From positions 1 to 52,160 of IMG/VR virus record IMGVR_UViG_3300033153_005795: a stretch of DNA of 52,160 nucleotides. One strand, given 5' to 3'. Of the stretch, positions 2,898-51,604 are shown piece after piece; position 1 is the stretch's first letter; the number at the start of each line of letters is the position of its first letter. The DNA is from a virus. Taxonomy: Duplodnaviria > Caudoviricetes. The notes beneath the pieces are model-generated. The model worked only from the letters and a program-made list of their open reading frames with translations. It was not told the DNA's origin and made no database searches. The position numbers were made by a program, and so were the translations under genes.

Positions 2898-2924
2898 CCT
2901 ATTATCCGCCCTGCCCCGCAGATG

Positions 2925-3128
2925 CTACGTTACAATTCTGATAACCAGCATCGAAGAGGCCGCTATAAAAGCAGCTATTATCGCTGCGAAAAGAGACCAT
3001 AGTTGTTTCGTCTGTGCAGTATGTTCGTGAAGGTGATTATTTACCGCCTGTTTTAACCATGCTACGTCTCGGCGGACTTCGAGAAGTATATCATGGTCTG
3101 ACTCACGTTGTTCTGTTCCGTTTGCCAT
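2925..3128 (-). CDS. Small membrane protein (coiled coil plus C-terminal TM helix; holin-like architecture)
   Basis: LWSLFAAIIAAFIAASSMLVI hydrophobic C-terminus; 1-nt overlap with the upstream gene. Confidence 0.6.
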   Translation of the reverse strand: MANGTEQRESDHDILLEVRRDVAWLKQAVNNHLHEHTAQTKQLWSLFAAIIAAFIAASSMLVIRIVT

Positions 3129-3508
3129 TAGTGATGTACTCCATATAACCTGTCAGATAATGCGTTGCCTTGATCCTGCAATTTGTGCAGATGATCACTT
3201 TCAGCATTGCGGAGTTGTCGCCTTATGTCTGATGTGGAGAGAGGAGCCAGCAGTCGCCGCCGCAGTCCTTCTGCGAGATGTCTGTTGAAATTACCCAGAC
3301 TGTATCCCATATTCAGCACATCCACAAACCATCTTTTAGGTTGGTTGAGCCAGAGAGCAATTACGAATGTATGTTCCAGTCTGTGGTAATATGTGAACAG
3401 CCGTTCCTTTAGATAAGGATCGGAGACTTGCCGCTTACACCACGCAAGTATCCCTGATTCAAGGATCCTGTGTTGCCTCGGATCGTAATGACAGGCAAGA
3501 CCAAACAT
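3128..3508 (-). CDS. Hypothetical protein in the head module
   Basis: 126-aa ORF in operon context, with a GGAGG-type SD. Confidence 0.7.
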   Translation of the reverse strand: MFGLACHYDPRQHRILESGILAWCKRQVSDPYLKERLFTYYHRLEHTFVIALWLNQPKRWFVDVLNMGYSLGNFNRHLAEGLRRRLLAPLSTSDIRRQLRNAESDHLHKLQDQGNALSDRLYGVHH

Positions 3509-3523
3509 AAGGCAAACCCTCCA

Positions 3524-6299: not shown

Positions 6300-7259
6300 T
6301 TACTTCCTTGCTTTACGGAACGCCTGCAATACCTTTTGCTGTACTCTCTGTACTACGTTGTCTTCGTAACCTTCCTCGGTAGATGGTACTCTTTTAATCG
6401 GTTCGTCGGTTTGAACTTCTGCTGGCAACGTACCGGACGGCCCAAGTCCCAATATATTCGGAACGGGTTGCTCGGACGCCCTACTTGGAATACCGAACTT
6501 TTTCAGATCGCTGCGTGTTGCCTGTATAGCATCAGCGATCAGTTCGGGTCCATATTGTTCACCCGCAAGAATAATCCTCCGTTGAACGTCCTCGAACACT
6601 TTTTTCTGTACTACCTCATCAAACCCTGCTGCATCCTTCACTGTCTCCTTCATTTTAGCAATTATATCATCTTTGTCAAGAGCCTCCTTGATTTCCTTCT
6701 TCACAAGAGCAATTGCCGCATCCATCTGGGTCTGCTTGGCCCCAGTCAGAATCTGCTTTACCTCATCAGGCAGGTCATCCATAGTCAATTTCTGCCGCTG
6801 CTGCTGCCCCGCAGAGGGGGTCGAAGCATTCGTCTCTGTTTGTGTGCCTGAATTGGGGTCTTCCTCTTCTTCGAGCCAGGCCGCCAATTCGCCTGCATCG
6901 AGTTTCAGGAGACCTGCCAATTCTGTAATATCTGCCTTGCTGGGGGGATTTGTACTGTCGGAGAGTCTGTCGAACAGCTCCATTGCTCTTGTTCCTCGCT
7001 GTGCCTTTTCTCGAAGGGCGGCTGCTTCCTGGAAGCGTTTATCCGCCCCGGCTGATTTCTGGGCAAGATTGATCAGTTCATCACGGCTTACCACTTTTTC
7101 GATTCCGTCCACTTTGATGGTGTATTCCTCCTCTCCTTTAGGTTTACTTTTGGGTTCATTTTCTGCAGCAGTAGTAGTAGCAGTAGCAGCAGTACCTTTC
7201 GTGTTTTCTGTTGTGCTTGTTGCACCATTTTCGTTTTCTTCGGGTGGCATAATATTCAT
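6300..7259 (-). CDS. Capsid scaffolding protein
   Basis: Acidic, low-complexity N-terminus, YTIKVDGIEKVVSRDELI motif typical of scaffolds, helical remainder; lies between portal and capsid. Confidence 0.8.
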   Translation of the reverse strand: MNIMPPEENENGATSTTENTKGTAATATTTAAENEPKSKPKGEEEYTIKVDGIEKVVSRDELINLAQKSAGADKRFQEAAALREKAQRGTRAMELFDRLSDSTNPPSKADITELAGLLKLDAGELAAWLEEEEDPNSGTQTETNASTPSAGQQQRQKLTMDDLPDEVKQILTGAKQTQMDAAIALVKKEIKEALDKDDIIAKMKETVKDAAGFDEVVQKKVFEDVQRRIILAGEQYGPELIADAIQATRSDLKKFGIPSRASEQPVPNILGLGPSGTLPAEVQTDEPIKRVPSTEEGYEDNVVQRVQQKVLQAFRKARK

Positions 7260-9695: not shown

Positions 9696-11529
9696 AATAG
9701 TGTTTTCCCTTTCTTCTCTGTTCATTGTAGGTTTTTTTGTAGTGTCTGTCAAGTAAAGCCATCCATTCCTCATCTGTTAAACTGTCTAATTCCGCTCCAC
9801 TTACGATTGGCAGTTTGGCTCCAGGAACCGGTGGCTGCCCTTCCTTTATCCGCTGGAGACGACTCTTCTCCTTATTCGGCTCGTGAATGGAATGTACCCC
9901 ACGGCTATGCACGATGTATTGGCTCATAGCAACCGTATCGATCGCATCGTCAAACGGGAGCAGAGCGAGGTCATACGTAAAATCTCTCGTCTGCGAATAG
10001 AGCATAGAAAAAGGCCACTTCTCTGCCAAATGTGCCGGATACTTAATGAGCCCCTGCTGAAAACGAGGCTCAAGCCCCGCAATCCTGGCCTGCTTCGGGC
10101 TGTTTGAAGGATACCGCACGGGTATAACCCGTGGTGCCCAGAGATCAGGATGCTCCTCGACATATGCTTGCATAGCTTCAACGAACCATACCTGCATCGA
10201 TATAGCCTCAATCCCGATTGCCTTTACCATCCACTTACGGGCGAGGTTATAAATCTGCCGTGTCAACACGGATTCCTTCACCCTTCCCATCCACATATCG
10301 AGCACCCACAGCGTATTATGAGTATCAAACCCCATAACTGCCCCGCAGGAATAATCATTGAACTGCCCCAGTCCAACCGCATAATCCACCGCAACAATCC
10401 TGAAGAGCTTCTTTACAAATTCACCGAAGGGTTCTTTCTTTTCTATGTACGAGTCGGTCTCCGCCTGCCTCTTGTACCATATCATAGGAGCCGTACTACG
10501 AAGAGGCTCATTTTGATAATAAGGATCATCCTGCGGGGCGTCAACCGTGTACTCGTTGCGGCGGGGATGAACAACAAAGAGCCGCTCTGTATCGCTGATA
10601 GGATCGTTGAGGTATTCTGCGTTGAACGCAGCATTGCCGATTTCTGCCCTTCGTACTTCCAGCACTTCCTGTGGCCATTTCTCCGGCCACAACACCTTCG
10701 TATGAGAAGGGGTTTTCATATCGTATTCTATAGCTTTGCAAACACGGCGATTCCAATACTCAAACCGGCTGTCCTGCATACAGGTTGCGTGGTAGAGGAA
10801 CGAGCGGCGGTTAATCAGCGTTCCAATCCAGAAAATAGCAGCCCCCTGCTCAAGCATAGGAATAATCTGCCGGAACAAAATCCCCTCGAACTTCTCCAGC
10901 AGCAATTGTTGTGAGGTCTGCGAATCAGAAGATGGATCGTTTTCAGGATCATCGAGAATAAAGAGCTGCGGACGTGCTCCACGCTTCCTGCCCATCACAC
11001 TGAAACCCTGAATTGTAGCACCGTTCTTCAAGTGAAGATGGTGGCGGTTCCAGATTGCATCCCCTCTGCGGGGCTTCATCTCGCCGAAATCTTCCAGGAT
11101 AAGCTCGTTAGTTGTGAACTGCTCCATTATTCTATCGAAGCGAGCCTCTACCAGAGCATCTGTCGAAAGCCCCAGTGCAATCGGAAAGTACGGACGGGTA
11201 AGCGCCAGAAGCAAAGGAATTTCACAGCCAATTACTGTTGACTTCGCAAATCCACGTGGAGCAGCTTCTGCGTTTCTGGCGTAGCGTCCGAGATCTCTAA
11301 CCATTTCGTAGTGTATCGGGGGAGATTCCTGAAAGCCACTCTTATAAAACGCATTCCCCATAGGTACAAGATAAAATCGCCTGAACAGATCCCACGCCTG
11401 CACCAGCTTGTCAGGTGTGCTTTGATCCATCAACACACTCAATCGGGCTTCCTTCTGCCCCGCAGATGTCAGCTCGAAATAGTCTGCAGGCAGCGGAAAA
11501 TTAGGATTGGGGTCCTGGTTCGGTTTCAT
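9664..11529 (-). CDS. terL: Terminase large subunit
   Basis: APRGFAKST Walker A, FILDDPE Walker B, WIGT coupling motif, RNase H-like nuclease residues VAVDYA..NDYS and DDAIDT. Confidence 0.93.
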   Translation of the reverse strand: MKPNQDPNPNFPLPADYFELTSAGQKEARLSVLMDQSTPDKLVQAWDLFRRFYLVPMGNAFYKSGFQESPPIHYEMVRDLGRYARNAEAAPRGFAKSTVIGCEIPLLLALTRPYFPIALGLSTDALVEARFDRIMEQFTTNELILEDFGEMKPRRGDAIWNRHHLHLKNGATIQGFSVMGRKRGARPQLFILDDPENDPSSDSQTSQQLLLEKFEGILFRQIIPMLEQGAAIFWIGTLINRRSFLYHATCMQDSRFEYWNRRVCKAIEYDMKTPSHTKVLWPEKWPQEVLEVRRAEIGNAAFNAEYLNDPISDTERLFVVHPRRNEYTVDAPQDDPYYQNEPLRSTAPMIWYKRQAETDSYIEKKEPFGEFVKKLFRIVAVDYAVGLGQFNDYSCGAVMGFDTHNTLWVLDMWMGRVKESVLTRQIYNLARKWMVKAIGIEAISMQVWFVEAMQAYVEEHPDLWAPRVIPVRYPSNSPKQARIAGLEPRFQQGLIKYPAHLAEKWPFSMLYSQTRDFTYDLALLPFDDAIDTVAMSQYIVHSRGVHSIHEPNKEKSRLQRIKEGQPPVPGAKLPIVSGAELDSLTDEEWMALLDRHYKKTYNEQRRKGKHYYDISRPNVIG

Positions 11530-12019: not shown

Positions 12020-12401
12020 TGTTTGTTTCTCCTTTCTGTTTCTTATCACGTTTCTGTTTTGCTTCCAGGGCAGAGGCAATCAAATCAGAGGAGAGAGTCA
12101 AAGTTGTGCCGTCCGCCCCACGAAATGTTCTCGTGGCCTTTACCATAAGGCCCGACGCCTGCATTGTTTCATAAAGTAATTCACGAATATATTTTATTGC
12201 AGAGATCTTGGCAGACAGATTTTCGTTTTGACGGGCAACCGCAATAAGCTCGTCAAGCTCTGTATCTCCAGTCCACTTACGGGTTTTGAGTGCATCAAGC
12301 ATTTCCCCAATATCAGTGAAACTCGCAAGCTGCTGAATATCTGCGGGGCTCAATTGACGCTGGAGTTCGTTAAGCTGTCGTTTTGTCAGATCTGTGGCCA
12401 T
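11877..12401 (-). CDS. Putative terminase small subunit
   Basis: 174-aa helical protein two genes upstream of TerL (SAKISAIKYIREL oligomerisation-like helix); assigned mainly by position. Confidence 0.45.
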   Translation of the reverse strand: MATDLTKRQLNELQRQLSPADIQQLASFTDIGEMLDALKTRKWTGDTELDELIAVARQNENLSAKISAIKYIRELLYETMQASGLMVKATRTFRGADGTTLTLSSDLIASALEAKQKRDKKQKGETNNASDPNPENTKGKEAASEDPSHRPPKADTAGLLPGIATSPPNSTSGD

Positions 12402-12861
12402 TTTTACCTGCGTTTAAGGACTTCGAGACTTCTCGCTTGGCTTCAAGGCGTTTAATGAGATCGGCCACCTTGGCTGCGGGGCCCATATTACGACCTTGAG
12501 CGGCAATCATTTCCATAAGAACAACAGGATCCTCGAATTGTTTCTGGAGATCCTCGTCGAGTTCGACCGGCACATCCTTTTTGCCCACGTTTTTGTGGTA
12601 AGAACCGGGAGCAGCAAAGCCAGGCCCACCAACACGGGTAAGGACATATATGACACGCTCCAGAGCGAATTCGTTGTAATAGGCACGATGGCCGATATAG
12701 ATGAGGGGAACCTTCAAGACCCGACAAAATCTGGTTGCAGCCCATCGTGAAATCTCAAGAATTCGACAGAGACGGTCAAGCTCTGCCAGACGGAAGGATG
12801 GGAATTCGAGCATTCCTCCACGGGATTTCCGCAGATACGTGTCATCCAGTTGTTTAGGCAT
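12370..12861 (-). CDS. Putative DNA-binding protein (HTH/excisionase-like)
   Basis: LDRLCRILEISRWAATRFCRVLKVPLIYIGHRAYY resembles a winged HTH; first gene after the 12894-12922 promoter; SD-supported start. Confidence 0.55.
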   Translation of the reverse strand: MPKQLDDTYLRKSRGGMLEFPSFRLAELDRLCRILEISRWAATRFCRVLKVPLIYIGHRAYYNEFALERVIYVLTRVGGPGFAAPGSYHKNVGKKDVPVELDEDLQKQFEDPVVLMEMIAAQGRNMGPAAKVADLIKRLEAKREVSKSLNAGKNGHRSDKTTA

Positions 12862-13652: not shown

Positions 13653-14062
13653 TGGAAATCTCCTTTCTTCCCGAAAAATAAGGCATAAAATAAAGTTTAT
13701 ACACACAAACGTAATCGTAGTGTGCCCCGCAGAGAGTTACTACGTTCGGGAAGGAAATTTGTTCAACCAGTTATAATTTCACCCTTCTACCGTGCACCTC
13801 GAAAGAAAACGGGGATTTGAGGCCGTTAGAGCAGAATCGAAATTAGGGTACTATACAATAAGTTGGTTAAAAAAGTTATCCTGTCATATTAGGGTATTAT
13901 GACATAATAAATAAATTAACCAATATCGAGACAATAGTACCCTCCTTTTGATGTGGGATAACAGGGGCAAAAAGGGCGATTTTTCAAAAAGAGCAATTTG
14001 CACACTGTTACTTACGTTACACTGGTTGGGAGGGAATATGAGTTAGAGGAAATTTAGACAGA

Positions 14063-14348: not shown

Positions 14349-14375
14349 CAAAAAAAACCCCGACATCTGCGGGGC
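14349..14375 (-). terminator. Rho-independent terminator
   Basis: Minus strand GCCCCG-cagatgt-CGGGGT running into a T8 tract. Confidence 0.8.
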
Positions 14376-16128: not shown

Positions 16129-16284
16129 CTCTTATCTCCTATCTTATACCTTACAATGGTAGCCCCAGCGGGTAGGACACCCTTTCCCTGTCTCTCGTCC
16201 TCTTCTCTACTATGCCCCTCTGCCGTTATCTGGGGCTACCTACTACAGACCTCCCTGTCTGACCTCCTTGTCCTACTTATCCTT

Positions 16285-16494: not shown

Positions 16495-16515
16495 CGTACT
16501 ATCTCCTTTCTTATT

Positions 16516-21074: not shown

Positions 21075-21192
21075 TTATAACCCTATAAGGTTATAAGGTT
21101 GTAAGGTTATAAGATTGTAGTGCCGCAGGGCTACAACCCTACATCCCTATAACCCCGTAACCCTATAACCTTATACCCCTACAACCCTATAG
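21075..21192. repeat. Inverted array of degenerate 8-bp repeats (YTAYAACC)
   Basis: Left arm GGTTATAA GGTTGTAA GGTTATAA GATTGTAG, spacer TGCCGCAGGG, right arm CTACAACC CTACATCC CTATAACC CCGTAACC CTATAACC TTATACCC CTACAACC. Confidence 0.85.
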
Positions 21193-23246: not shown

Positions 23247-23247
23247 T

Positions 23248-29151: not shown

Positions 29152-29224
29152 AATCTGCGGGGCACATAGTATGTTACGAACAGAAGAGGAATTTGTTCGC
29201 TATTCGCTAATTTATTTTTTTTAT

Positions 29225-37514: not shown

Positions 37515-40500
37515 CTACTGCCATTGTCCTTCTGCGGGGCCAGGGGCAGCAAACATTTGTGCATATTGATCCAGCAGCCCAACTGGTTGTTTCTCCAGAT
37601 CCTCGAAGATTCTGGCCATCATTGCTTCTCCTGCTACCCGCTCGAACAGCGGACGGTAGGCTTTTGGAAAACCACGCATAATACGGTGCAGTCTGCTTAT
37701 TTCCATACGATTATGGATTGCGGTAATATCACTTTTCTTTACCTGAAGAGGAGCAAGTTCGGGGTAGGCTTTCTTGAAATCCTCCTGTACACGTTGTGCC
37801 CTGGGTAAGTCATTCTTCGACAGAGCATCGAGGTACTCCCTCCGGTAGCGGCGGACCTTCTCCCGCTGCTTCAGAAGCCATTCGGCTGCAGCCCACTCCG
37901 AAGATTGAGCAACGGGGTTCAGCCCACTTGCCCGCATAAAAAGCTCAAACGGACTATACGTACCAACCAATGCTCTCTCCCTGTTATAGACGGGAATACG
38001 CCCATCCTCCGTGCGGTTCTGATAATCAGCATACCGAGGAGCCAGCGTACGATATAGTCTTCTTATACCAAGCCCCCCAGGTACCAGCAGAGGCCACGCT
38101 GTCTGTAGATATTTCGGCTCCCCACTATGTACAGCCGCAAGGAGAGATCCTGCAGTTCCTATGACCGGCGGAACGAAAGGGGAAGGATAAAAAGGAGCTT
38201 CCGGATAAACCGGGGCCGGCAGTGCCCCGAACAATAACTGCTGGCTAATATCCATTCCCAGCATATTCTTGACTGCATAGTAAGCCGCTGTGGAACCCAT
38301 TAGTGCCCGTGCTATTGTACCCCAATGCAATTTATTCGGGTCTGCTCCCCATCGTAGAGAACTATGGAGAAAACCCAAAAACCTCAACGGAAAGTGCATA
38401 AACTGTCTGAACGGAACAGGCAGGTTCAGCAGCATTCGTGGCATATTCAAAGGGCCGCCAGGAAATTGCGTCATACCAACCATTACTCTTCCAAGCTGTC
38501 CTGCCATAGCAGGTTTTATCCCGTCTGCCAATGCAGTCGCCCGTGTACCATAAAAACTTAACAGCCAGTTAAACGATTCGGTTGCTACAAAAGGAGTCAT
38601 CATTACCCGCTTTATTTTCTCCCACATACTGCCTACTGCTACTATTGCAGGATGTCCGGTTTGCATTATATCGCCATGTGTCATTTGCTCTATAAAGTGC
38701 CCGGCGTCTTTCATTTCCTTCACGAGTTCAGGAAAGGCCAGCTTAAAAGCCTTTGCGTGCCCCACTCCTTTTGTTAGATACGAGAAATATTTCAGAAGCC
38801 GTGGATTCTTCGGTCCCAATAATTCTTCAAATCCAAGCTTCATACCTCTCAATCCTATCACGTTTGCAGTAGTAATCCATGTCTGCCCTAAATTCTTGAT
38901 AGATGGAGAAAGATTAGGCATTCCGAGTGTTGATAGATAAAACCAATGGGCAATCCGTGAACCTATAGTTTCGAGATTAAAAGCGCCGGGCGACTCGGCA
39001 AAGTAGTCCAGCAACATCTTATGTGTGGTCGGCGGCAACAACTTCTTCAACATCGGATGATCACGAAGCCACGTAAAGATGCGGTACTTCTGTTCCCCAA
39101 ATGCAACCGAATGTTCAAATCCTACCCGTGTTCTTATGCCCCGCAGAAGAGGTAGCAAATTATCCATTAAATACCTGGTCTGCCACGCAGGAAGAGGGCC
39201 GGCTCCCCTGATTGTCTTCATAATCTCTGTTCCTTTGCCTGTCATATGCCACGCAAAAGTAGGAGCAACTGCGTGTAGATAGCGGGGAAGTACTTTATAT
39301 GGATCCATTAGATATTCTGGTGGTAATGCAAAATGGTCAGCAATTGTATTAAGCTCGGCCAGCATTGCTTCCGCCCCCCGACCGGAGGCATCCTTCAACA
39401 GGTGGAACATATTTCTGAACAGAGTATTTGCGGCATCTCTTTTCCCCAGGCGGATTGTCATATCCATATTCCACGGGGGATTATTCATCATTTCTCCTAC
39501 GTCTTTGACGAACTTATCCACGTTACCAGCCGCCGCCTTCCATCTCTCACCAATCCCACGGGCGAACATAGCCCTTCGTTTTCCAAGCCATCTATTCAGT
39601 AGAGGCATAAAGTCAGGATGCAGATCACCAGCTTCCTCAAGCATTCGTAGCTCTTTCATCGCAGGCATTCCTCCCCAGGTACGTACCCGGAGAGGCCGGC
39701 CTACTGCGTACTCCACTGTTCTGTCAACCCAGTCAGCATACGATTGTGGACTTGAAGCAACAGATGCTCTTTGTGCCAATCGTTCATATCTATTGAAATA
39801 TGTACCGTGCGGGAAATAATTCTTGATACGCTGTCCTATCTCCCATCCCTTCAGTTTAAGTGCATTTCGTAATTTGCTTGCTTTCATCCATACTTCTTTA
39901 GGAAAAGAATCTGCTATACTATCCAGCCATTTTCCCATCCTCCCCGATAGCTTTATAGCAGCAGGGCTCATTTTCCTCTGTAGCCCAGGGGCTATTGGTC
40001 CCATTGCTTTCAATTCAGCCGCAAATTCAGGGTCGGAACTCAATAACCTCCAGAGTGGAGACTTCGTCGTGTTCCATCCTTCTCTTAAAGCGGCAGCTCG
40101 TAGTCTTTCAAGTCTCGGTAGCCTGCCTGCCTCTCTAAACATCCGATCTAATTTAACCACATACTTCGCTTCATAGTCAGCCAGAGTTCCTACGTACTCC
40201 GCCAACTTCTTTATCAATCCAGGAACATTCCGAAGATTTGTAAATGCCGAATGGATATACGACGAGTACGGTCCCATCGCCTTCACAGCCCCTGACGTGC
40301 CTTCATAAAGGGCTTGCAGTGGTTTAACCCCCACAAGAGGAAAACCCTTCATCAATCCAGGGATCCCGAAAGCCATTATAGCCCCTATGATGAAGACCGG
40401 ATTTGTCGTAACATCCACTATCGTCTTCAGGAAGGGGTTCTTTCTACCCTTCAGCAGGGCAGAACGAAACGTCTGCATTTCTGTTGGTGTAAGTGTCTGG

Positions 40501-41051: not shown

Positions 41052-41468
41052 TTATCTCCTCAACATCCCGACCAGCGATGTAGATGGCCCCGCAGAAGAG
41101 GGCAAAAATACCTGACGACGCTGTTGCATAAGCGAATTGACAAGACTTGTCATCATTGCATCACGAGCTACTTTTGATTGCGTTAGTAGATTTAGCAGGT
41201 TCATTCTGCGTGCTTCGCTCCGCTCTGTAGTACGAGATTTCAACATCTGCTCCAGCATCTTATCTGCACGAGCCCTCGATTCCTTTGTCATCATTCGCAT
41301 TGCTTCAAATTGTTTCTGCTGCAGACCTAATTTTGCACGCTCTAATGAGAGCTGTGCTTTTTCTCCTGCCGGCAGAAACCATTCACCGAGCGGCAACCGT
41401 TCTATAATCTGCGGGGCACCAAAAAGGATAGCCCCCCACAACAACGCATCGTCTATACCTAATGCCAT
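41052..41468 (-). CDS. Small ejection-protein candidate
   Basis: MALGIDDALLWGA hydrophobic start followed by a Q/M-rich helix. Confidence 0.55.
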   Translation of the reverse strand: MALGIDDALLWGAILFGAPQIIERLPLGEWFLPAGEKAQLSLERAKLGLQQKQFEAMRMMTKESRARADKMLEQMLKSRTTERSEARRMNLLNLLTQSKVARDAMMTSLVNSLMQQRRQVFLPSSAGPSTSLVGMLRR

Positions 41469-44125: not shown

Positions 44126-46777
44126 TTAAACCGCATTTCTACTGCTCGACATCGTTACTCCAACCTCTACATTCGTTAATTCAAACGAAACCCCACAGGA
44201 AATCTGCTCAATATATGGTTCTACTTTTATTCCGTCCACCGATATGTAGCCCCAGGAATCTGCGGGGTTTTCGTCTATGTCAACAGTATCTGTTGCGTTT
44301 GTCCCACTTTCTACGGACGAACCCCCGTTCCTGTATGCCCCAACCCGCCAGAAATCGTTGACATTATTTGTAAATCCACTGGTCTTCTGAACTTCTATTC
44401 CGACCGACGTTACCAGCGTTCTACGAAATTCATCCTGCGGGGCATCAGGATCACGAATCGGCCACAACCGAACCCCAACCGGAACAGGACTGATTGCATA
44501 AGTATCCCCTACAGCAATGGAGTTTGGGAAACCAGACACAAAACTAATCGTATGTGCCCCAACATCCACATTGCTTATTTCCCGTGCCAACCCTGCATTA
44601 TCACCTCCGGTCATATACACAAGAGTTCCTACCATATCTGCGTGAAAGGTAGCATTACTATCCACAAGCGTGCTTCCGGCGGAAGTCGCAGTTCCATTCA
44701 GGGTATATGAACTATCCAATCCCCACATCGTACCGCTGCCACTTTCATCCAGATCCGGTGAAACAATCAGCCCCGTTGCAGTTATAAAGTATCCTCTTGT
44801 TTTCTTTCCATCCGATATATCCGGCCCTTGGGTGCAGGCCACAAAGTTTGCCCCTTTCAACATATTTACCACGTGGCTGCTGTGCCAGATTATCAACACC
44901 TCGTTTGCAGAAGGATTGAGAAAGAAAGAAGCATTCAATCCCGCATCGTAGCAGCTCCACACATCATCCAAGTCTGATACCCAGTCATCACTCAACAGCC
45001 TGTCCGCCGTGCTTACCTGGCCCATATTACCATCGCTTGCATTCAGCATTACGAGCGTGCTGCCAACAATCATAAACAGACTGTTGCCTACTGCGTGTGC
45101 TGCTTGCTTCCCCGTCAGCCCTCTTCCACGGTGCAGCTCCTGGTATTGTATAGGTTTGCCACGTGCTGATTTATACGCATACAGCACCGAATTCGTTTTC
45201 AAAACAAACAGCGAATCACCCGCCGGAACCAAGCGAATTGCTCTCCCCTCTTCGTTTGTACCACGGCGTCTATTATATGTCGAAAAGTATTCAGCAGATA
45301 TATGCTCCGCACTACTATGCAGAATATCGTATGGATTACTGGAGCTTTGGGCATCCGCCATAAACGTAAGCCCCTGATACCTGCATATCGTACCGGACTG
45401 TGGAGGGGCTGTAACAATATCCCTTTCCGCATCGTACATCGTTTGGAACGGCAGTGCATCATCGGGTATCTTTCCAAGGCTGACCTGCAGGCTATCCCAC
45501 GCCCCGGATGTAGCCCAATTACCCGTCTCCGAGATTTCCTGCTCCAGGAACAATAGTGCTCCTGTTTGCCCCAATGCTCCTGAACCAATATCGATAGACC
45601 TGAATACCTGCACGGTATCGAACAGTGCATCGAAATCAGCATACGCCTTATCCGCCACTACCGCCGTATTATCAGGAAAATCCAGCACAACTTTGCATTG
45701 CTCCTCTGGATCCTCTGTTGCTTCGCCTCCTCCTGTCAACGTGCTACCACTGACCGAGATGTCATCGGTATTACTTCCTGTCTCCGACTTACTGATACCA
45801 TACGCATTTGCATCAGAACCACGTGCCTTCGCCTCCAGCAACACGGATGCCGTCTGTGCTTTCGCTGTTACATCCGCCTGACTATCTCCGTTAATAGCAT
45901 CAGCGAGAGCTTGTGCGTGTTCCAGTATCGTAGTAAGTCCCGTTATATTGATAGCTACATCACCTGTGATACTCGAATCATTATCCGCTTCATATACCCG
46001 CCCATTGATAGTAATCGTATCTCCATCCACGAACAGCCCACTATCTCCGCCAGCCGAATTGAAATAAACACTTCCAGTTGCCTTGGTCGTTTTCATTATA
46101 TCCATATACACCGTCAGGACGCTGCTCATAGCACTGTATATTCCCCTCTTCGAGTCGTAGAACCTCCACGCTACCTGGAATACACCGTTGCCCCGCAGAT
46201 GGTAATCCGTATCCGTAGATTGCACACCATTATCCTGCAGTGCTCCAAGTTCTGCAGTAAAAGCACCTGGGCCCATATTAACCGCCTGAAGGGCGCTGCC
46301 GTCCCAGTACACAGTTTTTGGGGATTTACCTTCGATACATACGAACAGATAGCCACGATCCGTCTCACAGTCCATCTCTACAGTATTCGTGATTCCAGAT
46401 GTACCGCCTGTCCAGAGTGTTTTTTGTGCCCACGTGCCCCCGTTATCCAGGGTGTAAATCAAATCAACCTGTTCGTTGTCGTTATCGTCGTCGCTATCCC
46501 ACCGCACCACAAAGCCCCGATAGAAGCTCGATGTGCCCCGTTTCTGGAATACTACGTGTTTCACGAACGACGGCCCATCATAGGCATCTATATCTCCTAT
46601 GACCGTGTCGAGGTCGAGTACCTCCTTCATTCCATAGAACTTATGCAGGCAGTTCATAAACCGGCCATCACATCCCCAGACATCTCCCATAGTACCTGCG
46701 GGGCACTGGGTCGATGGAACTGATTTATTCATAATCGGCCCACGAATTGCGTACGATATGTAATCTCTACTTTGCAT
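44126..46777 (-). CDS. Tail nozzle / tubular-B-like protein with inserted domains
   Basis: 883 aa, beta-rich propeller-like repeats, C-terminal FELTNVEV strand; position before the ejection genes. Confidence 0.65.
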   Translation of the reverse strand: MQSRDYISYAIRGPIMNKSVPSTQCPAGTMGDVWGCDGRFMNCLHKFYGMKEVLDLDTVIGDIDAYDGPSFVKHVVFQKRGTSSFYRGFVVRWDSDDDNDNEQVDLIYTLDNGGTWAQKTLWTGGTSGITNTVEMDCETDRGYLFVCIEGKSPKTVYWDGSALQAVNMGPGAFTAELGALQDNGVQSTDTDYHLRGNGVFQVAWRFYDSKRGIYSAMSSVLTVYMDIMKTTKATGSVYFNSAGGDSGLFVDGDTITINGRVYEADNDSSITGDVAINITGLTTILEHAQALADAINGDSQADVTAKAQTASVLLEAKARGSDANAYGISKSETGSNTDDISVSGSTLTGGGEATEDPEEQCKVVLDFPDNTAVVADKAYADFDALFDTVQVFRSIDIGSGALGQTGALLFLEQEISETGNWATSGAWDSLQVSLGKIPDDALPFQTMYDAERDIVTAPPQSGTICRYQGLTFMADAQSSSNPYDILHSSAEHISAEYFSTYNRRRGTNEEGRAIRLVPAGDSLFVLKTNSVLYAYKSARGKPIQYQELHRGRGLTGKQAAHAVGNSLFMIVGSTLVMLNASDGNMGQVSTADRLLSDDWVSDLDDVWSCYDAGLNASFFLNPSANEVLIIWHSSHVVNMLKGANFVACTQGPDISDGKKTRGYFITATGLIVSPDLDESGSGTMWGLDSSYTLNGTATSAGSTLVDSNATFHADMVGTLVYMTGGDNAGLAREISNVDVGAHTISFVSGFPNSIAVGDTYAISPVPVGVRLWPIRDPDAPQDEFRRTLVTSVGIEVQKTSGFTNNVNDFWRVGAYRNGGSSVESGTNATDTVDIDENPADSWGYISVDGIKVEPYIEQISCGVSFELTNVEVGVTMSSSRNAV

Positions 46778-47066: not shown

Positions 47067-49426
47067 TATTTCTTAATCTCCATTGCCGACAAAAACCTAT
47101 CCTGAACAGCTATACCACTAAAAGCATCCCCCGCTTTTGCTTGTAGATAATAAGTAGTAGCCCCTGATGAAGTCGGTAGAGAAATCATCACTCTGTTTCC
47201 TGTGCCGCTATCTGCAACTGCAATATAACCAGGAAGTTCTGTACTATAAATAACATCTGTCCAACTATTATCTGCCGGGGTAGTCTGCAGTTCCCAATCT
47301 ATACCATTTGCAGAGGTCATAACACGTTGTCCGGTTCCGCTCTCGGCTACTGCTACAAATTTCCCGCCTCCGTACGTTATAGAAGTCCAATTGTAAGCGG
47401 CTGCGGGTGTACGAAGAGTCCAAGTATAACCATTAGGTGAAGTCATAACACAGCCATCCCCTACTGCTACAAACAATCCTGCCCCATAGGCGACATCTCT
47501 CCAGTTATTGTCTGCCGCCGAATCTCCTAAATACCAATCTATACCATTATAAGAATACGCAACACGATGACCAGATTCACCATGACCTACAGCGAGAAAT
47601 TTATTGTAGCCATAGGTTATCCCGTTCCAATAAGAACCTCCTGTATCCCTTAATGTCCACGTAATACCATCTGAAGAAGTTATAACGTCGTCAACAGCAG
47701 TATGTACCTCTCGTATTGCTACAAATTTACCTTTACCATAGGCAATTGCCCGAACATAATTATATCCTATTGAATAGCTTGTCCAGTTAATACCGTCAGT
47801 AGAAACCATCGAACGGTTATCTGATACCGCAACAAATTTGCTGGCTCCATCCCCATATACAACATCAAGCCAGCCATAATTGGGTATGCTCGTACGAATT
47901 GTCCAGGTTTCTCCGTCTGGAGAAGTCATAACACGATTGCCAGATCCAGTATTAGCCACAGCTACAAATAATCCTGCTCCGTAAGCAATTGCCTGCCAAT
48001 CATTATCCGCAGCACTATTCTGAAGTGTCCAGTCAATACCAAATTCACCGCTGTCAATATAATGAAAAGCAAAAAATTGATTAGCCGGTGCATAGTGGCT
48101 ATCTGGATAGTCCCAGATGACATCACTATTTTCTGTCCCATTCCTTGTTAATCTGACATAGTGAGCATAGACAAGAGGAAATAGACCAAAATCCAATTTA
48201 ACAGGACTACCACTCAATGTTATTGTAAGACTTTGTACTGTGGTCCAGAAAAATTCGTAGGTACCAATACTATCCCCTGTATATGCACTGATCAAACTTG
48301 TTGTGGCATTATCAGCGATTTTAGTTGTGCCGACTTCGAGCTCACCTATTGTAGCACTTGTGATTGCTGCATCTGCAATAATCGCCGATGCTGCCGTGAT
48401 GGTTCCCGTAGCCATTTCGTTGGCGGTAATCGTGGCTGCTGCAATCTCGTTGGCTGTAATCGTATTCGCCGCAATCTGGTCAGCAGTAATAGAATGTGTA
48501 TAAATCCTCCCTCCATCTATAAAAGTAAGATCATTGGTATGGCTCCAATCGGAAAGAACCGTTGAGCCAGCAATCAAGATCTTACCTGCTTCCACCAGCG
48601 TTGTTGCGTGTGCATTGATACCATTGGTTATTGTATCAGCATCAGTGGCATCGGCTACGACAATACGACCCGTGGTGCCATCCAGTCCTGCTACAGCTAT
48701 CTTCAGGGCCGTTATAGCATCATCCTCAATATCTCCGGTGGCCGCATTGCGTGGAGTCGCACTCGCACCTGCCGAGAAATCGGACTTGTTAGCCAGATGA
48801 TCAACTGCTTTCACCCAGTAATACTGTACCTGACTACCTGTAAGATTACCATCCACAAACACGTTAGTCATCGCAATAGCAATACGAGTAGCTGTTCCAC
48901 TATCGTTAATTGTATTCCTATAGACCTCGTAATGATCGAGGTCGGTTTCCGTGTTAGCATTCCAGTCCAGCCTGTTATATTGAATTCCCCCTGTTGCTGT
49001 CAGTCCCGTGGGTGCAGCAGGAGTTTCCCCATCATCCAGTAGCCTTCCAGGAACTCCTATACCGCTGGTAATAGTAGTCAAAGATGGTCCTATTCCCGCT
49101 GGCCCAGGAGGTCCCGGTGGCCCAGGAGGCCCAATCAATCCCTCGAAATAATAGTTATAGGTGTTCTGCTGCCCCGCAGATAGCGTGGACATAACCGATG
49201 AAAGAAGCTGGCTTTCCTTGCTCGGAGCCTCGATTGATACCCCGTAGTTCTCTGGCATTATCGTTTGGTAGTTACGTGTAAGACTGCTGTTGCCCCACGG
49301 TATAATCATACCACGGGCGTCGATAGTAGTACTTTTGTCGATTGCAGGCAGAAACTCTCCTTGCAATACAGGGGCCGGAACTCCTATATCTCCATCACTT
49401 CTGGCATCTGTAAATACATCGGCCAT
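47066..49426 (-). CDS. Tail fibre: collagen-like stretch, FN3 domain, ITA..I repeats, beta-propeller
   Basis: GPPGPPGPPGPAG; PAAPTGLTA..LDW..YWVKAVD; ITADQIAANTITANEI; about 6 W..I.YG.G.FVAV..MTS.DG..WT blades. Confidence 0.85.
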   Translation of the reverse strand: MADVFTDARSDGDIGVPAPVLQGEFLPAIDKSTTIDARGMIIPWGNSSLTRNYQTIMPENYGVSIEAPSKESQLLSSVMSTLSAGQQNTYNYYFEGLIGPPGPPGPPGPAGIGPSLTTITSGIGVPGRLLDDGETPAAPTGLTATGGIQYNRLDWNANTETDLDHYEVYRNTINDSGTATRIAIAMTNVFVDGNLTGSQVQYYWVKAVDHLANKSDFSAGASATPRNAATGDIEDDAITALKIAVAGLDGTTGRIVVADATDADTITNGINAHATTLVEAGKILIAGSTVLSDWSHTNDLTFIDGGRIYTHSITADQIAANTITANEIAAATITANEMATGTITAASAIIADAAITSATIGELEVGTTKIADNATTSLISAYTGDSIGTYEFFWTTVQSLTITLSGSPVKLDFGLFPLVYAHYVRLTRNGTENSDVIWDYPDSHYAPANQFFAFHYIDSGEFGIDWTLQNSAADNDWQAIAYGAGLFVAVANTGSGNRVMTSPDGETWTIRTSIPNYGWLDVVYGDGASKFVAVSDNRSMVSTDGINWTSYSIGYNYVRAIAYGKGKFVAIREVHTAVDDVITSSDGITWTLRDTGGSYWNGITYGYNKFLAVGHGESGHRVAYSYNGIDWYLGDSAADNNWRDVAYGAGLFVAVGDGCVMTSPNGYTWTLRTPAAAYNWTSITYGGGKFVAVAESGTGQRVMTSANGIDWELQTTPADNSWTDVIYSTELPGYIAVADSGTGNRVMISLPTSSGATTYYLQAKAGDAFSGIAVQDRFLSAMEIKK

Positions 49427-49431
49427 TTTAT

Positions 49432-50379
49432 CTACCTACCTATCCTTCTGTACCGGCGGTTGTCGTAGTTATCCCCGGCGGTTTTAGGTGCATTTTGCAA
49501 AACCGAATAATATGCGTTTAATCGCAGATTTCGTAATTGATTTCGATATACTTTCAGGATGGAATTAGCTCTTCGTGTGTTCCCCTCGATACTTGCAATA
49601 GTATAGGCAGTATAGAGGGAAACTATAGTATCCAATCCTTTGTTGATTGCAGGGGCTATCTCGTAATATATCGAACCATCGTCGGTTGTAGGAACCGGAT
49701 CCAGTGCAACATCCAGTGTGGCTACACGGGTAGAAACATCGTATGCACTGATAGTCCGTTCCTGGATATAGTTGCCCGTAACGGTCGAGCCATCCACGTC
49801 TATTATTCTAAATATCGAACCCACGTAACCGCTAACGTGTGTATCCAGCGTGCCCGCATTAGGAGATGCCCCAAACGTAACTTCATCACCACCCGAATTT
49901 ATTGTGCAGGTTCCTTCGTGAAGGCGTGCTGTACCGGATGGGATATATTCGACCACAATCTCCGTACCTGTGGGCAGTGAATCGTCGGTCTGTGTATGCA
50001 GCGTATGACCTTCAACCCATACAAATCGCCCGTACGGATTGAAACGGCTCCTGGAATCATAGAAACACTTGGTACCCTGGGAGGTTTCCTGATAAATAGC
50101 ATAGATAGAACCAATCGTGTGAGGCAGTGCATATTGATGCGTACCGCTGGCAATGGTTACGGTTATCCTGCCCACTACAGGCGTTTTAGTATTACGATTT
50201 ATTTCTGCCAAAATCAGTGCATACGAACTCTCCAGCAGATCAATCACAACCGAATCTGTATATTTTGCGTTGATTGACGGTTCATCCACAGCCGTCCGGG
50301 CCAAAGCTATCGCCCGTGTCAGAAAACTATTATCGTAGCTCATATCTCTATTATATCCTCCTGTACCGCCGTACGTCAA
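49432..50379 (-). CDS. Tail adaptor / tubular-A-like protein, paralog 2
   Basis: Highly similar to the C-terminal ~300 aa of 50351..51604; start probably MSYDNSF. Confidence 0.6.
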   Translation of the reverse strand: MTYGGTGGYNRDMSYDNSFLTRAIALARTAVDEPSINAKYTDSVVIDLLESSYALILAEINRNTKTPVVGRITVTIASGTHQYALPHTIGSIYAIYQETSQGTKCFYDSRSRFNPYGRFVWVEGHTLHTQTDDSLPTGTEIVVEYIPSGTARLHEGTCTINSGGDEVTFGASPNAGTLDTHVSGYVGSIFRIIDVDGSTVTGNYIQERTISAYDVSTRVATLDVALDPVPTTDDGSIYYEIAPAINKGLDTIVSLYTAYTIASIEGNTRRANSILKVYRNQLRNLRLNAYYSVLQNAPKTAGDNYDNRRYRRIGR

Positions 50380-51604
50380 AGTTATCGGGACTTACCTGCG
50401 GGGCACTTTGCAATAACGAGTAATAGCCGGATAGCCGCAGATTACGTAGCTGATCACGGTAGATATTCGAGAGGGCCTTCGCTTTTTCTGCGTTTCCTTC
50501 GATACTTACTATTACGTATGCTGCGTAGGTTGCTATCGTTTCGTCCAACCCTTTCCAGATAGAGGGTGCTACCTCATACATAATATGCCCCCCGCTTCCA
50601 GCTGCGGGGACAGGATCCAATGCTACGTCCAGTGTAGCTATACGGGTGGTTCTGTCGTATGCTGTAATGGTTCTTTCCTGGATATAGTCGCCGACCGCTC
50701 CCGTACCTGTAACTTTGAGAATTCGCAATACACAACCTGCGTATGCGTTTTCGTGAGTATCAAGTGTGCCTGCATTCGGAGTAGTTGCAAATGTTACTTC
50801 GTTACCGTCTGAATTGACCGAGCACGTTCCATTGTGGAGGCGTGCAGTTCCCGCTGGTATGTACTCAATGGTCAGTACGAGCCCGGCTGGCAGTACGTTC
50901 ACATTCTGAATATGAAGCGTACTGCCCTCTATCCACACGTACCTTCCCAGCGGGTTGAAGCGGCTGCGTGGGTTATAGATAAGCCGTGCTCCTTCGGATG
51001 TATGCTTATAGATTGCATAGACTGCCCCAATATGATATGGTAGAACATATGTCATATCACTACTCGTAATTGTCAGGTTCGTTCGTCCTACAACAGGTGT
51101 CTTTGTGTTGCGGTTTATCTCGCCGATTATTACAGGATATGCCCTCTCCAGTTCCCCGATTATATCTGCATCCGTATATTTTACATTGATAGCGGGCTCA
51201 TCCGTATTCGACCTGACTGCCGCAATGGCACGTGTCAGGAAACTTTCTGCGTAGTTACTGGCTTGTTGAGCAGCAGGTGCAACATAGCTGCCTTCCCATA
51301 TTACAGTACCATCAGCTATCATACCATCACTATCGGCAGGGTTAGCCCCATTCTGTACGAATGCTACCACGATATACGTCCCCGCCGTCGTAATGTTACC
51401 GTCTGCATCAAAATCCCCTGTATAATGACCGCTGCCGGATCCGACTTCCGTCAGAGCAACATCATAATCGTCGGCATCGTGGCCGCCGGTTCCCCAGTCC
51501 TCAAAAGCCGAACCATCACTCAATGCCGCCTGCCCGCTCGAATTAAACCGCACGGCATACAGCGTTACTCCCGATTTATAATTTACGTGTATTTCGTTTG
51601 CCAT
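50351..51604 (-). CDS. Tail adaptor / tubular-A-like protein, paralog 1 with extra N-terminal beta domain
   Basis: SFLTRAI..DEP.IN.KYTD..EINRNTKTPVVGR shared with the neighbouring gene. Confidence 0.6.
   Translation of the reverse strand: MANEIHVNYKSGVTLYAVRFNSSGQAALSDGSAFEDWGTGGHDADDYDVALTEVGSGSGHYTGDFDADGNITTAGTYIVVAFVQNGANPADSDGMIADGTVIWEGSYVAPAAQQASNYAESFLTRAIAAVRSNTDEPAINVKYTDADIIGELERAYPVIIGEINRNTKTPVVGRTNLTITSSDMTYVLPYHIGAVYAIYKHTSEGARLIYNPRSRFNPLGRYVWIEGSTLHIQNVNVLPAGLVLTIEYIPAGTARLHNGTCSVNSDGNEVTFATTPNAGTLDTHENAYAGCVLRILKVTGTGAVGDYIQERTITAYDRTTRIATLDVALDPVPAAGSGGHIMYEVAPSIWKGLDETIATYAAYVIVSIEGNAEKAKALSNIYRDQLRNLRLSGYYSLLQSAPQVSPDNFDVRRYRRI

What the first reader, a model, noticed from the sequence alone, without database searches (positions are those of the whole stretch)
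2913..50404. Genome-wide over-represented 9-mer GCCCCGCAG (at least 29 exact copies, both strands)
Seen by eye. Plus strand: 2913, 6806, 10340, 11457, 13724, 21240, 24879, 27864, 31470, 33255, 39138, 41087, 46190, 49171. Minus strand: 10531, 11066, 12341, 12474, 14367, 17595, 22308, 28310, 29155, 32272, 37532, 41409, 44435, 46696, 50396. Near matches at 8272, 44260, 50602. About 0.4 copies are expected at equal base frequencies. The next base is a purine in 27 of 29. It falls in different reading frames (SAG, CGA, LRG, APQ, PRR, PAD) and in intergenic DNA, so it is not codon-driven. Many copies form convergent pairs 0.2-1.2 kb apart (10340/10531, 27864/28310, 41087/41409, 46190/46696). It is sparse in the two small-gene blocks. 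Inference: a DNA-level signal such as a priming or nicking site (no primase gene is visible), a Chi/uptake-like host signal, or a binding or methylation site for a phage protein.
Basis: partly seen in the sequence, partly recalled or inferred. Interest (0 to 1): 0.85.

Follow-up and report, generated by a model that had tools for sequence, protein, structure and literature searches.

The report
Paired dispersed DNA word in phages
A whole group of uncultivated phages keeps one short, one-directional DNA word about every 1-2 kb on both strands, evenly spaced and mostly in facing pairs; each lineage has its own spelling, and what reads the word is still unknown.

Summary
GCCCCGCAG occurs 29 times (14+/15-) in this complete 52-kb phage genome, against 0.3 expected. 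A codon-preserving shuffle leaves 0.7 of the 24 coding copies.

Comparison widened the finding to a clade trait. Twelve near-complete relatives lack this word, but each has its own 9-10-mer at 26-57 copies. These include CCTCCGCAG (the commonest), CCTCAGCAG, CCTCTGCAG, CCCCTGCAA and CCCCGACAG.

- **Conservation:** among same-spelling relatives with about 70% nucleotide identity, 58-71% of coding sites are kept exactly, against 8-10% of all 9-mers.
- **In-place change:** one PolA site is orthologous across three spellings.
- **Arrangement:** copies are balanced between strands and evenly spaced per strand. A word is followed closely by its complement (median 487 bp, against 1394 bp for the reverse order).

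The MT-A70 gene (4 of 14 genomes) and the helicase winged helix do not track the word. No primase was found. No sampled Pseudomonadota genome is enriched (401 and 251 tested). The host is unknown.

My best guess (0.3) is strand-start (priming or loading) signals for replication. The rivals are nick sites, a Chi-like signal and an uptake-like host word. Earlier notes of this scan list similar words in other phages, two of them with the same CCGCAG core.

The parts
2913..2921 (+). word copy, intergenic (upstream of the tailspike gene start at 2712)
6806..6814 (+). word copy in the 319-aa head-module gene, antisense to the gene
10340..10348 (+). word copy in TerL; left member of a facing pair with 10531 (191 bp)
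10531..10539 (-). word copy in TerL; right member of the pair
11066..11074 (-). word copy in TerL (KPRR, where relatives have KPPR)
11457..11465 (+). word copy in TerL, N-terminal part
12341..12349 (-). word copy in a small ORF upstream of TerL
12474..12482 (-). word copy in the 171-aa ORF (followed by C, one of two copies without a purine next)
13724..13732 (+). word copy at the edge of the largest non-coding region
14367..14375 (-). word copy forming the 5' arm of a terminator-like hairpin followed by a T run
17595..17603 (-). word copy in the ThiF/E1 gene; the only copy in the 14.4-21.2 kb block
21240..21248 (+). word copy, intergenic, 50 bp from the origin-like inverted repeat array
22308..22316 (-). 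word copy in the RepA-type helicase gene
24879..24887 (+). word copy in the 169-aa ORF
27864..27872 (+). word copy in the PD-(D/E)XK nuclease gene; pair with 28310 (446 bp)
28310..28318 (-). word copy in the PD-(D/E)XK nuclease gene
29155..29163 (-). word copy, intergenic; its first 5 bases pair with GGGGC 8 nt downstream
31470..31478 (+). word copy in PolA. It is orthologous to the local words of G402 and G410 at the same alignment column, so the spelling changed in place
32272..32280 (-). word copy in PolA; pair with 31470 (802 bp)
33255..33263 (+). word copy in PolA (UDG-proximal part)
37532..37540 (-). word copy at the 3' end of the 1039-aa gene
39138..39146 (+). word copy in the 1039-aa gene
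41087..41095 (+). word copy in the 138-aa gene; pair with 41409 (322 bp)
41409..41417 (-). word copy in the 138-aa gene
44435..44443 (-). word copy in the 883-aa gene
46190..46198 (+). word copy in the 883-aa gene; pair with 46696 (506 bp)
46696..46704 (-). word copy in the 883-aa gene
49171..49179 (+). word copy in the 786-aa gene; pair with 50396 (1225 bp)
50396..50404 (-). word copy in the 417-aa gene
21075..21192 (.). possibly related: an inverted array of 8-bp repeats (origin-like) whose centre, GTGCCGCAGGGC, resembles the word with two C missing
   Evidence: resemblance only, function not tested

Best explanation
The word is a cis-acting signal that is read on one strand in one direction and belongs to the phage lineage. 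I think it most likely marks where synthesis of a new DNA strand starts, that is, where a primer is laid down or a replication protein is loaded.

Each strand needs such a start every 2-3.5 kb, which is Okazaki-fragment scale. That would explain why both strands carry equal numbers at even spacing. A word followed closely by its complement would then act as a two-way start unit, one start per strand.

Shown here: selection at the DNA level, clade-wide spellings, conservation of position, strand balance, even spacing per strand, and facing pairs. Inferred: that the process is replication, and that the event is priming or loading.
For: - **Selection on the DNA itself:** 29 copies against 0.32 expected. 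The codon-preserving shuffle gives about 0.7 coding copies against 24 observed. One-mismatch forms are near chance.
- **Clade trait with lineage spellings:** each of the 12 whole relatives has its own 9-10-mer at 26-57 copies, counting the 8-base core for G402. Most partial relatives also have a word of their own. The window's word occurs 0-3 times in 16 relatives.
- **The word does not follow base composition:** the same spelling CCTCCGCAG occurs in phages of 40% to 55% G+C.
- **Purifying selection on position:** exact conservation in 10/15, 11/19, 14/20, 12/19, 15/21 and 17/26 coding sites between same-spelling genomes, against 7.5-10.5% of all 9-mers.
- **Spelling changed in place:** one PolA site is orthologous in the window, G402 and G410, each with its own spelling.
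- **Arrangement:** strands are balanced in every genome. Per-strand spacing has a lower CV than random in 24 of 24 strand series of the 12 CCYCNGCAG-type genomes, with P<0.05 in 19 of 24. Per-strand intervals are about 1.8-3.7 kb.
- **Facing pairs:** the distance from a word to the next complement is shorter than the reverse in 12 of 12 such genomes. In 9 less-redundant genomes, 0 of 5000 circular shifts reach the observed value.
- **No recognisable primase:** none was found in the window or in 14 clade genomes, although PolA, helicase, SSB-like, Sak4-like and nuclease genes are present.
- **Precedent:** plasmid RSF1010 uses two oppositely oriented priming signals on complementary strands with a RepA-type helicase, and replicates in leading-strand mode only (passages read, PMC8567376). 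The window's helicase is of that Pfam family (PF13481).
Against: - No protein that could read 9-12 bases was identified.
- The core proteins shared by all 13 genomes are structural proteins plus PolA.
- No primase or RepB'-type enzyme was found (0 of 14).
- Most known primases read three bases (PMC8567376).
- The helicase family is swapped within the clade without a change of word type. Its winged helix does not follow the spelling.
- In the window the minus strand has a 12.2-kb gap without a copy.
- Priming alone does not predict that the two strands' series should be in phase as facing pairs.
I did not check that note.
- No read data could be obtained, so nothing physical (5' ends, nicks, modification) was seen.
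Confidence: 0.3

Rival explanations
1. The words are sites of programmed single-strand nicks in the phage DNA, made by an unidentified phage nickase, as in tf-type Pseudomonas phages and T5. Here they would fall on both strands. The 3' ends could also serve as starts for the strand-displacing PolA.
For: A 9-base asymmetric word tied to nicks, and enriched in 61 related Pseudomonas phages, is in print (WACTRTGAC in Rembedalsseter; TACTRTGMC in tf; passages read in PMC11780129). The length, the sharpness and the clade-specific conservation match. No primase was found, so nick-primed synthesis would fill a gap.
Against: In the published case all copies lie on one strand and crowd towards one end of the genome. 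Here the strands are balanced and evenly spaced. No conserved candidate nickase was found: HNH and Endonuclease VII genes are not clade-wide. Facing nicks only 23-100 bp apart would risk double-strand breaks.
Confidence: 0.2
2. The word is a polar signal read by a host enzyme that travels along DNA (a Chi-like site for a RecBCD/AddAB-type helicase-nuclease, or a stop signal for another defence motor). The phages accumulated it in both directions to protect a circularly permuted genome whose ends can lie anywhere.
For: Phages that pile up the host's Chi far above chance are documented: LLS has 23 sites, and MD8 has 32 sites that form its commonest octamer (passages read in PMC12315714). Even spacing in each orientation is what protection from any end would need. 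Spellings could follow different hosts.
Against: Published Chi-rich phages lack a recombination module, carry Chi almost only in one orientation and have it clustered at one end. This clade encodes a Sak4-like annealing protein, a PD-(D/E)XK nuclease and an ERCC4 nuclease and has both orientations. The Chi sequences quoted in that paper are octamers, whereas this word spans 9-12 bases. The same spelling is kept in phages of 40-55% G+C. No enrichment was seen in 401 or 251 sampled Pseudomonadota genomes. That covers one phylum only.
Confidence: 0.15
3. The word is a binding site on double-stranded DNA for an unidentified phage protein with a genome-wide task (compaction, silencing, packaging or segregation). 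Two bound molecules would communicate along the DNA when they face each other.
For: A sharp 9-12-bp word with co-evolving spellings is typical of protein-DNA recognition. A dependence on orientation over 0.1-1 kb is what one-dimensional communication along DNA would produce (my inference).
Against: No clade-wide DNA-binding protein was found. 80% of copies lie inside genes, in both orientations relative to transcription, unlike operator or stoperator arrays. There is no consistent clustering at the terminase genes.
Confidence: 0.14
4. The word is a host-genome word of the uptake-sequence type (USS/DUS-like), shared between a naturally transformable host lineage and its phages. The spellings would be host dialects.
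For: The similarities are: density near 1 per kb; both strands equal; presence in all reading frames; dialects differing by 1-3 bases; and some close inverted pairs that form terminator-like hairpins (window 14367; G406 and G404).
Against: The spelling follows phage phylogeny, and one spelling spans 40-55% G+C. The phase coupling of the two strands is not a known property of uptake sequences (my recollection). No enriched genome was found among those sampled. A lytic-type phage gains nothing obvious from uptake.
Confidence: 0.08
5. The word is the target of a sequence-specific DNA modification (for example N6-adenine methylation of the single A next to the last base) that the phage needs on its own DNA.
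For: The second-to-last base is A in all seven spellings listed, G414's 12-mer aside. The window encodes an MT-A70 methyltransferase next to PolA. Some relatives encode an N6_N4 methyltransferase with a large insert.
Against: MT-A70 is present in 4 of 14 genomes, and the N6_N4 family in 4 of 13. No methyltransferase is clade-wide. The 188-aa MT-A70 has no room for a domain that reads 9-12 bases (my inference). Modification alone does not explain the even spacing or the facing pairs.
Confidence: 0.08

Closest known systems
Nick-associated word of tf / Rembedalsseter-type Pseudomonas phages (WACTRTGAC; PMC11780129, passages read; PMC3517423, search listing only)
   Same: A sharp, asymmetric 9-base word. 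It is far above chance, lies inside genes, is conserved across a whole phage group with little nucleotide similarity, and its function is unknown.
   Different: In that case there are 13 copies, all on one strand and crowded towards one end, with physical nicks shown. Here there are 26-57 copies on both strands, evenly spaced and in facing pairs, with many lineage spellings, and no physical data.
ssiA/ssiB priming signals of IncQ plasmid RSF1010 with RepA helicase and RepB' primase (PMC8567376, passages read)
   Same: Long sequence-specific start signals on complementary strands in opposite orientation. A RepA-family helicase is also present in the window. Replication needs no classical lagging-strand primase.
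   Different: The plasmid has one pair of 40-nt hairpin signals, read by RepB'. Here there are 10-25 pairs of a 9-12-nt word with no general hairpin. RepB' is absent (0 of 14), and the RepA-type helicase is present in only 6 of 13 genomes.
Chi-rich lambdoid phages (LLS, MD8; PMC12315714, passages read)
   Same: A polar host-type word accumulated by a phage to about 1 per 1.9 kb, becoming its commonest oligomer.
   Different: In those phages the word is the host's 8-mer, in one orientation, clustered at one end, and the phages lack recombination genes. Here the word is longer, sits in both orientations, is evenly spread, and recombination genes are present. No enriched genome was found among those sampled.
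DNA uptake sequences of Pasteurellaceae and Neisseriaceae and their dialects (PMC7371117, search listing only; otherwise recalled)
   Same: Density, strand balance, occurrence in all frames, dialects, and some inverted pairs that act as terminators.
   Different: Those are words of bacterial chromosomes driven by uptake bias. Here the carriers are phages, the spelling follows phage phylogeny, and the strand series are phase-coupled.
Dispersed words noted earlier in this scan in other phages (e1-3420152, e1-3295781: YCCGCAGRYGA-type; e1-3287679: TGGGGCAG alternating strands)
   Same: Phage-private, evenly spaced 8-12-mers. Two of them share the CCGCAG core, and one alternates between strands.
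   Different: They are on other, Bacillus-type phages, and two of them sit on one strand only. These are unchecked AI notes, and I could not compare the genomes.

Membership tests
Nick-associated phage words (tf/Rembedalsseter type) | An asymmetric word of about 9 nt enriched across a phage clade | tested here: met
Nick-associated phage words (tf/Rembedalsseter type) | Copies on one strand only | tested here: not met
   14+/15- in the window; strands balanced in all 13 genomes
Nick-associated phage words (tf/Rembedalsseter type) | A physical single-strand break at each word | not testable with these tools
   no sequencing run could be listed
Chi sites accumulated by phages | The word is the host's own recombination hotspot and is abundant in the host chromosome | tested here: inconclusive
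Chi sites accumulated by phages | Strong bias to one orientation and clustering near one end | tested here: not met
   compared
Chi sites accumulated by phages | The phage lacks its own recombination module | tested here: not met
   Sak4-like protein, PD-(D/E)XK and ERCC4 nucleases
Uptake sequences (USS/DUS) | About 1 copy per kb throughout the host chromosome | tested here: inconclusive
   as above
Uptake sequences (USS/DUS) | Both strands equal; some inverted pairs serve as terminators | tested here: met
IncQ-type paired priming signals | A RepB'-type primase | tested here: not met
   PF16793 found in 0 of 14 genomes at E<=1
IncQ-type paired priming signals | A RepA-type helicase | tested here: inconclusive
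   PF13481 in the window, but the helicase family is present in only 6 of 13 genomes
IncQ-type paired priming signals | Signals on complementary strands in opposite orientation | tested here: met
IncQ-type paired priming signals | 40-nt hairpin signals, one pair per replicon | tested here: not met
   9-12-nt word without a second half-site; tens of copies
Methyltransferase or restriction-modification target | A cognate methyltransferase in every genome that carries the word | tested here: not met
   MT-A70 in 4 of 14; N6_N4 family in 4 of 13
Operator/stoperator arrays of temperate phages | Sites mainly intergenic and oriented with transcription | tested here: not met
   24 of 29 copies are coding, 13 on the sense and 11 on the antisense strand of the gene; 104 of 504 intergenic across the clade

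The most novel reading that the evidence does not exclude
These phages replicate without a conventional primase. Each facing pair of words is a small two-way start unit, and an unrecognised sequence-specific initiator (phage or host) starts one strand at each word. The 52-kb genome would then be copied from 10-25 dispersed start units, largely in leading-strand mode. The initiator and its roughly 30-57 sites drift together, producing lineage spellings much as uptake-sequence dialects or restriction specificities diverge.
Probability: 0.18. Interest if true: 0.9.

Novelty: new variant of a known kind. Interest (0 to 1): 0.78.

Why it matters
Dispersed sequence signals in phage genomes are known in only a few forms: Chi, nick words and operators.

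This case adds a well-controlled example with four properties I did not find described together in the papers I searched:
- lineage-specific spellings of one word family across a clade that spans 40-62% G+C;
- strong conservation of site position;
- even spacing on each strand;
- a consistent word-then-complement pairing.

The pairing implies a reader that works directionally along DNA.

If it is a host enzyme, the word would identify the host and reveal a new Chi-like or uptake-like system in uncultivated bacteria. Either way the words are a simple signature for recognising this phage group in metagenomes.

Tried and rejected
- **Codon or amino-acid artefact:** rejected by the synonymous shuffle.
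- **A 9-bp (3-codon) insertion element:** rejected. The word overlies aligned, conserved residues in TerL.
- **MT-A70 as reader:** rejected; present in 4 of 14 genomes.
- **Helicase winged helix or the 2x winged-helix protein as reader:** not supported. The stand-alone protein has no detectable counterpart in L002 or L004. The helicase family is replaced in 6 of 13 genomes. Winged-helix similarity follows the helicase family, not the spelling.
- **PolA/UDG as reader:** the columns shared only by same-spelling genomes are spread along PolA and are similarly frequent in portal and tail proteins, so they reflect phylogeny.
- **pac-like clustering at terS/TerL:** seen in the window (8 copies within about 4 kb) but not consistent across the clade.
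- **Second half-site or bipartite motif:** none within +/-14 nt.
- **Prim-pol hidden next to the helicase:** phrog_10729 matches cover only its helicase half, in 5 of 14 genomes. RepB' primase: 0 of 14.
- **Close cultured relatives:** none. Megablast against phage records found no match (one search's best TerL identity was 26%).
- **PolA relatives by single-protein patterns:** none found.
- **tRNA genes as a host clue:** none.
- **Sequencing runs:** none was listed, so read laying could not be used.
- **Host search:** the single genome-contig scan returned only a 26%-identical terminase in an Alcaligenaceae MAG. That genome has 131 copies in 6.9 Mb against 295 for the control. Phylum-level counts were possible only for that genome's phylum.
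- **Host clue from the E1 gene:** homologues of the ThiF/E1 protein that carry an organism name are mostly from Planctomycetota (Gimesia, Phycisphaerae) and one Verrucomicrobiota, at 37-43% identity.
- **Protein Atlas:** it gave only viral clusters for PolA, and 'large polyvalent protein' neighbours for the 1039-aa protein.
- **Not used:** Structure prediction, fold search and complex prediction.
- **Supplements:** supplementary files of the papers were not opened. Those of PMC12315714 and PMC11780129 may hold per-phage motif tables that bear on the comparison.

Full report
**1. The observation.** The window is a complete virus record of 52,160 bp with a 114-bp terminal repeat. That repeat lies inside the tailspike reading frame, so the ends are probably an assembly break in a circular or permuted genome.
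Dinucleotide shuffles give 0.32 on average.
- It contains the commonest 7-mer of the genome. Nearly every occurrence of its sub-words lies within a full copy.
- The 14 one-mismatch forms are close to chance (43 matches at up to one mismatch, against 8.15 expected).
- Flanks add a weak t before the word and [a/g][a/t] after it.
- Almost all genes lie on the minus strand. 24 copies are inside genes, 13 on the sense and 11 on the antisense strand of the gene, in all three frames. 5 are intergenic, and two of these form part of hairpins.
- Shuffling synonymous codons within each gene removes the coding copies: mean 0.7 against 24 observed. A third-order Markov model gives 0.7.
- The word is not an inserted element. 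In the terminase it is written over aligned, conserved residues.

**2. What the phage is.** It carries the following recognisable genes:

| Function | Coordinates | Calls |
|---|---|---|
| Large terminase | 9664-11529 | 9 |
| Portal and head/tail genes | several | 4, 21, 73 (named from gene order and homology; no family match) |
| RepA-type helicase with a C-terminal winged helix | 21435-22508 | 10, 38 |
| Sak4-like annealing protein | 25735-26619 | 10, 84 |
| PD-(D/E)XK nuclease | 27435-28496 | 10 |
| ERCC4 nuclease | 30686-31294 | 17 |
| MT-A70 methyltransferase | 33832-34398 | 18 |
| Nucleotide pyrophosphohydrolases | 34621-35013, 35444-36013 | 18, 38 |
| ThiS-E2-JAB-ThiF module | about 17.1-20.6 kb | 10, 18 |

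No primase was found in any ORF scanned. There is no close cultured relative.

**3. Relatives each have their own spelling.** Terminase searches returned 10, then 39 metagenome loci and 73 viral loci.
- None of the first ten carries the window's word. Sixteen near-complete relatives carry it 0-3 times.
- Yet the top over-represented 8-9-mer of most relatives with at least 40% terminase identity is a related word.
- In 12 genomes fetched whole the counts are:

| Spelling | Genome(s) and copies |
|---|---|
| CCTCCGCAG | 30, 40, 35, 57, 36, 36 (G403, G404, G405, G406, G409, G411) |
| CCTCAGCAG | 54, 48 (G407, G410) |
| CCTCTGCA(G) | 26 (16 with the final G) (G402) |
| CCCCTGCAA | 29 (G408) |
| CCCCGACAG | 52 (G413, 62% G+C) |
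| ACTCCGGGCTCC, a 12-mer | about 30 (G414) |

- Partial contigs add further forms.
- The common shape is a C-rich block followed by G-C/A-A-G/A and then a purine.
- The spelling CCTCCGCAG occurs in phages from 40% to 55% G+C.
- Spellings follow the phage phylogeny. The window's nearest genome is G402, at 59% terminase identity.

**4. Selection on position.** Between same-spelling genomes that are only about 70% identical in aligned coding DNA, 58-71% of the word sites are kept exactly. The background for any 9-base window is 7.5-10.5%. At about 64% identity the figures are 7/16 and 9/17 against 3-4%.

Between different spellings most sites have turned over: 0-3 coincident sites against about 0.1 expected. 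The PolA site at window 31470 is an exception. There the window, G402 and G410 each have their own spelling in the same column and orientation. So the spelling can change in place, and the words are homologous base by base.

**5. Arrangement.**
- Strands are balanced in all genomes.
- On each strand the copies are more evenly spaced than random. CV is 0.45-0.83, against about 0.9 for random placement. It is below the random mean in 24 of 24 strand series of the 12 genomes with this word family, and P<0.05 in 19 of 24. In the window the plus strand is even (CV 0.47, P=0.003) and the minus strand is not (CV 0.83, with one 12.2-kb gap).
- Strands alternate more often than chance in most genomes.
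- The two series are in phase. The distance from a word to the next complement downstream is shorter than the reverse in 12 of 12 genomes. Pooled neighbour medians are 487 bp against 1394 bp. In nine less-redundant genomes, 0 of 5000 circular shifts of one strand's sites reach the observed value. Below 100 bp there are 11 facing pairs and 0 of the opposite order.
- This order does not change when the sequence is reverse-complemented, so it owes nothing to gene direction.
- In the window alone the effect is marginal (P=0.05-0.07).
- A few very close pairs are hairpins. Two have T runs, like terminators.
- G414's 12-mer shows the opposite order, but I chose its orientation arbitrarily.
- Copies are mildly enriched outside genes: 104 of 504 against 63 expected.

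**6. Who reads it?**
- Proteins found in all 13 genomes by BLAST clustering are TerL, portal, three other structural or large proteins, a 126-aa protein and PolA. Near-core proteins are the Sak4-like protein, an SSB-like protein, and the PD-(D/E)XK and ERCC4 nucleases.
- MT-A70 is in 4 of 14 genomes.
- The RepA-type helicase is in 6 of 13. Another six have an unrelated P-loop protein (GPPGSGKT) in its place. G403 and G404 share a spelling but differ in helicase type.
- Winged-helix similarity does not follow the spelling.
- Columns shared only by same-spelling genomes are not concentrated in any one protein or domain.
- Prim-pol and RepB' primase models find nothing.
- I therefore cannot name a reader. 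It may be a fast-evolving phage protein that my clustering splits, a domain of a large conserved protein, or a host enzyme.

**7. Host word or phage word?** The host is unknown.
- The only bacterial genome reached (an Alcaligenaceae MAG, through a 26%-identical terminase) is not enriched.
- Among 401 genomes drawn evenly from its phylum, the densest has 204 copies of the window's word in 2.7 Mb. That is about 0.08 per kb, against 0.56 per kb in the phage.
- Among 251 such genomes, the majority word peaks near 0.05 per kb, against 0.6-1.1 per kb in the phages.
- Other phyla could not be reached.
- Named homologues of the phage's E1 enzyme are mostly planctomycete, which is a weak host clue.
- Against a host word: one spelling spans a wide G+C range, and the spelling follows phage phylogeny.
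- For a host word: the overall likeness to uptake-sequence dialects.

**8. Comparison with what is known.**
- **Nick-associated words of tf-type Pseudomonas phages** match in length, sharpness and clade conservation. They are on one strand and clustered.
- **Chi-rich lambdoid phages** show that phages can accumulate a host polar signal. Those phages lack recombination genes and carry the signal in one orientation near one end.
- **RSF1010** shows that long, oppositely oriented priming signals on complementary strands can replace lagging-strand priming, together with a RepA-type helicase. It has a single hairpin pair and a RepB' primase, which is absent here.
- **Searches of the paper library** for evenly distributed, over-represented motifs on both strands of phage genomes returned nothing comparable. 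That covers only the open-access papers held.
- **Earlier notes of this scan** list similar words in other phages, two with the same CCGCAG core. They are unchecked and I used them only as leads.

**9. Verdict.** It grows into a clade-wide, positionally conserved, strand-symmetric, evenly spaced and pairwise-oriented word family with lineage spellings.

The mechanism is not shown. I put strand-start (priming or loading) signals first at 0.3, because of the Okazaki-scale even spacing per strand, the lack of a primase and the RSF1010 precedent. The others follow: nick sites 0.2, a host polar signal 0.15, a binding-site array 0.14, an uptake-like host word 0.08 and a modification target 0.08.

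Noticed in passing
window 16000-20000: Extreme strand composition: GC skew of -0.54 to -0.58 over the ThiS/E2/JAB/ThiF (ubiquitin-like conjugation) module, against about -0.1 to -0.3 elsewhere. This block holds only one copy of the word. Named homologues of the E1 enzyme are mostly from Planctomycetota (Gimesia, Phycisphaerae), at 37-43% identity.
   Followed up: partly
window 21075-21192: An origin-like inverted array of about 8-bp repeats (TATAAGGT / ACCCTATA types) beside the 3' end of the helicase gene. Its centre, GTGCCGCAGGGC, resembles the dispersed word. A full copy lies 50 bp away, at 21240.
   Followed up: partly
window 20920-20960: A low-complexity CGCA/CGCTCGCA tract just before the origin-like array.
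   Followed up: no
window 31242-33851 and relatives: [quoted passage not shown] The motif that reads GEAPG in G402, G407, G410 and G413 reads GQSPG in the window, so glycosylase activity may differ within the clade.
   Followed up: partly
G402, G403, G407, G408, G410, G414 (e.g. L123:2142-3413): A 390-423-aa P-loop protein (GPPGSGKT) with no Pfam or PHROG match replaces the RepA-type helicase in six of the 13 genomes. This looks like a non-orthologous swap of the replicative helicase.
   Followed up: partly
window 25277-25738 and relatives (e.g. L141:11992-12555): A 153-aa protein family that ends in an acidic tail. In G409 and G406 the tail includes a DIPF tip like that of bacterial SSB. It is probably the phage's single-strand-binding protein.
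   Followed up: no
G414 (L152-L154): This more distant relative carries a 12-mer, ACTCCGGGCTCC, about 30 times. It lacks the even spacing, and its pair order is the opposite (or its orientation is reversed).
   Followed up: partly
window 34621-36013 and 24163-24549: A cluster of nucleotide-pool genes: a dATP/dGTP pyrophosphohydrolase (PF04447), a MazG-like pyrophosphohydrolase and DUF1937. Several relatives add a dNMP phosphatase. This hints at an altered nucleotide pool or DNA base chemistry.
   Followed up: no
window 1-114 and 52047-52160: The 114-bp terminal repeat lies inside the tailspike reading frame (1-2712 continuing at 51612-52160). The record's ends are therefore probably not the physical ends of the DNA.
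   Followed up: partly
L002:2850-2890: In a relative, one word copy sits exactly in the 17-bp spacer of a sigma-70-like promoter (TTGACT ... TAAAAT) in front of a small gene.
   Followed up: no
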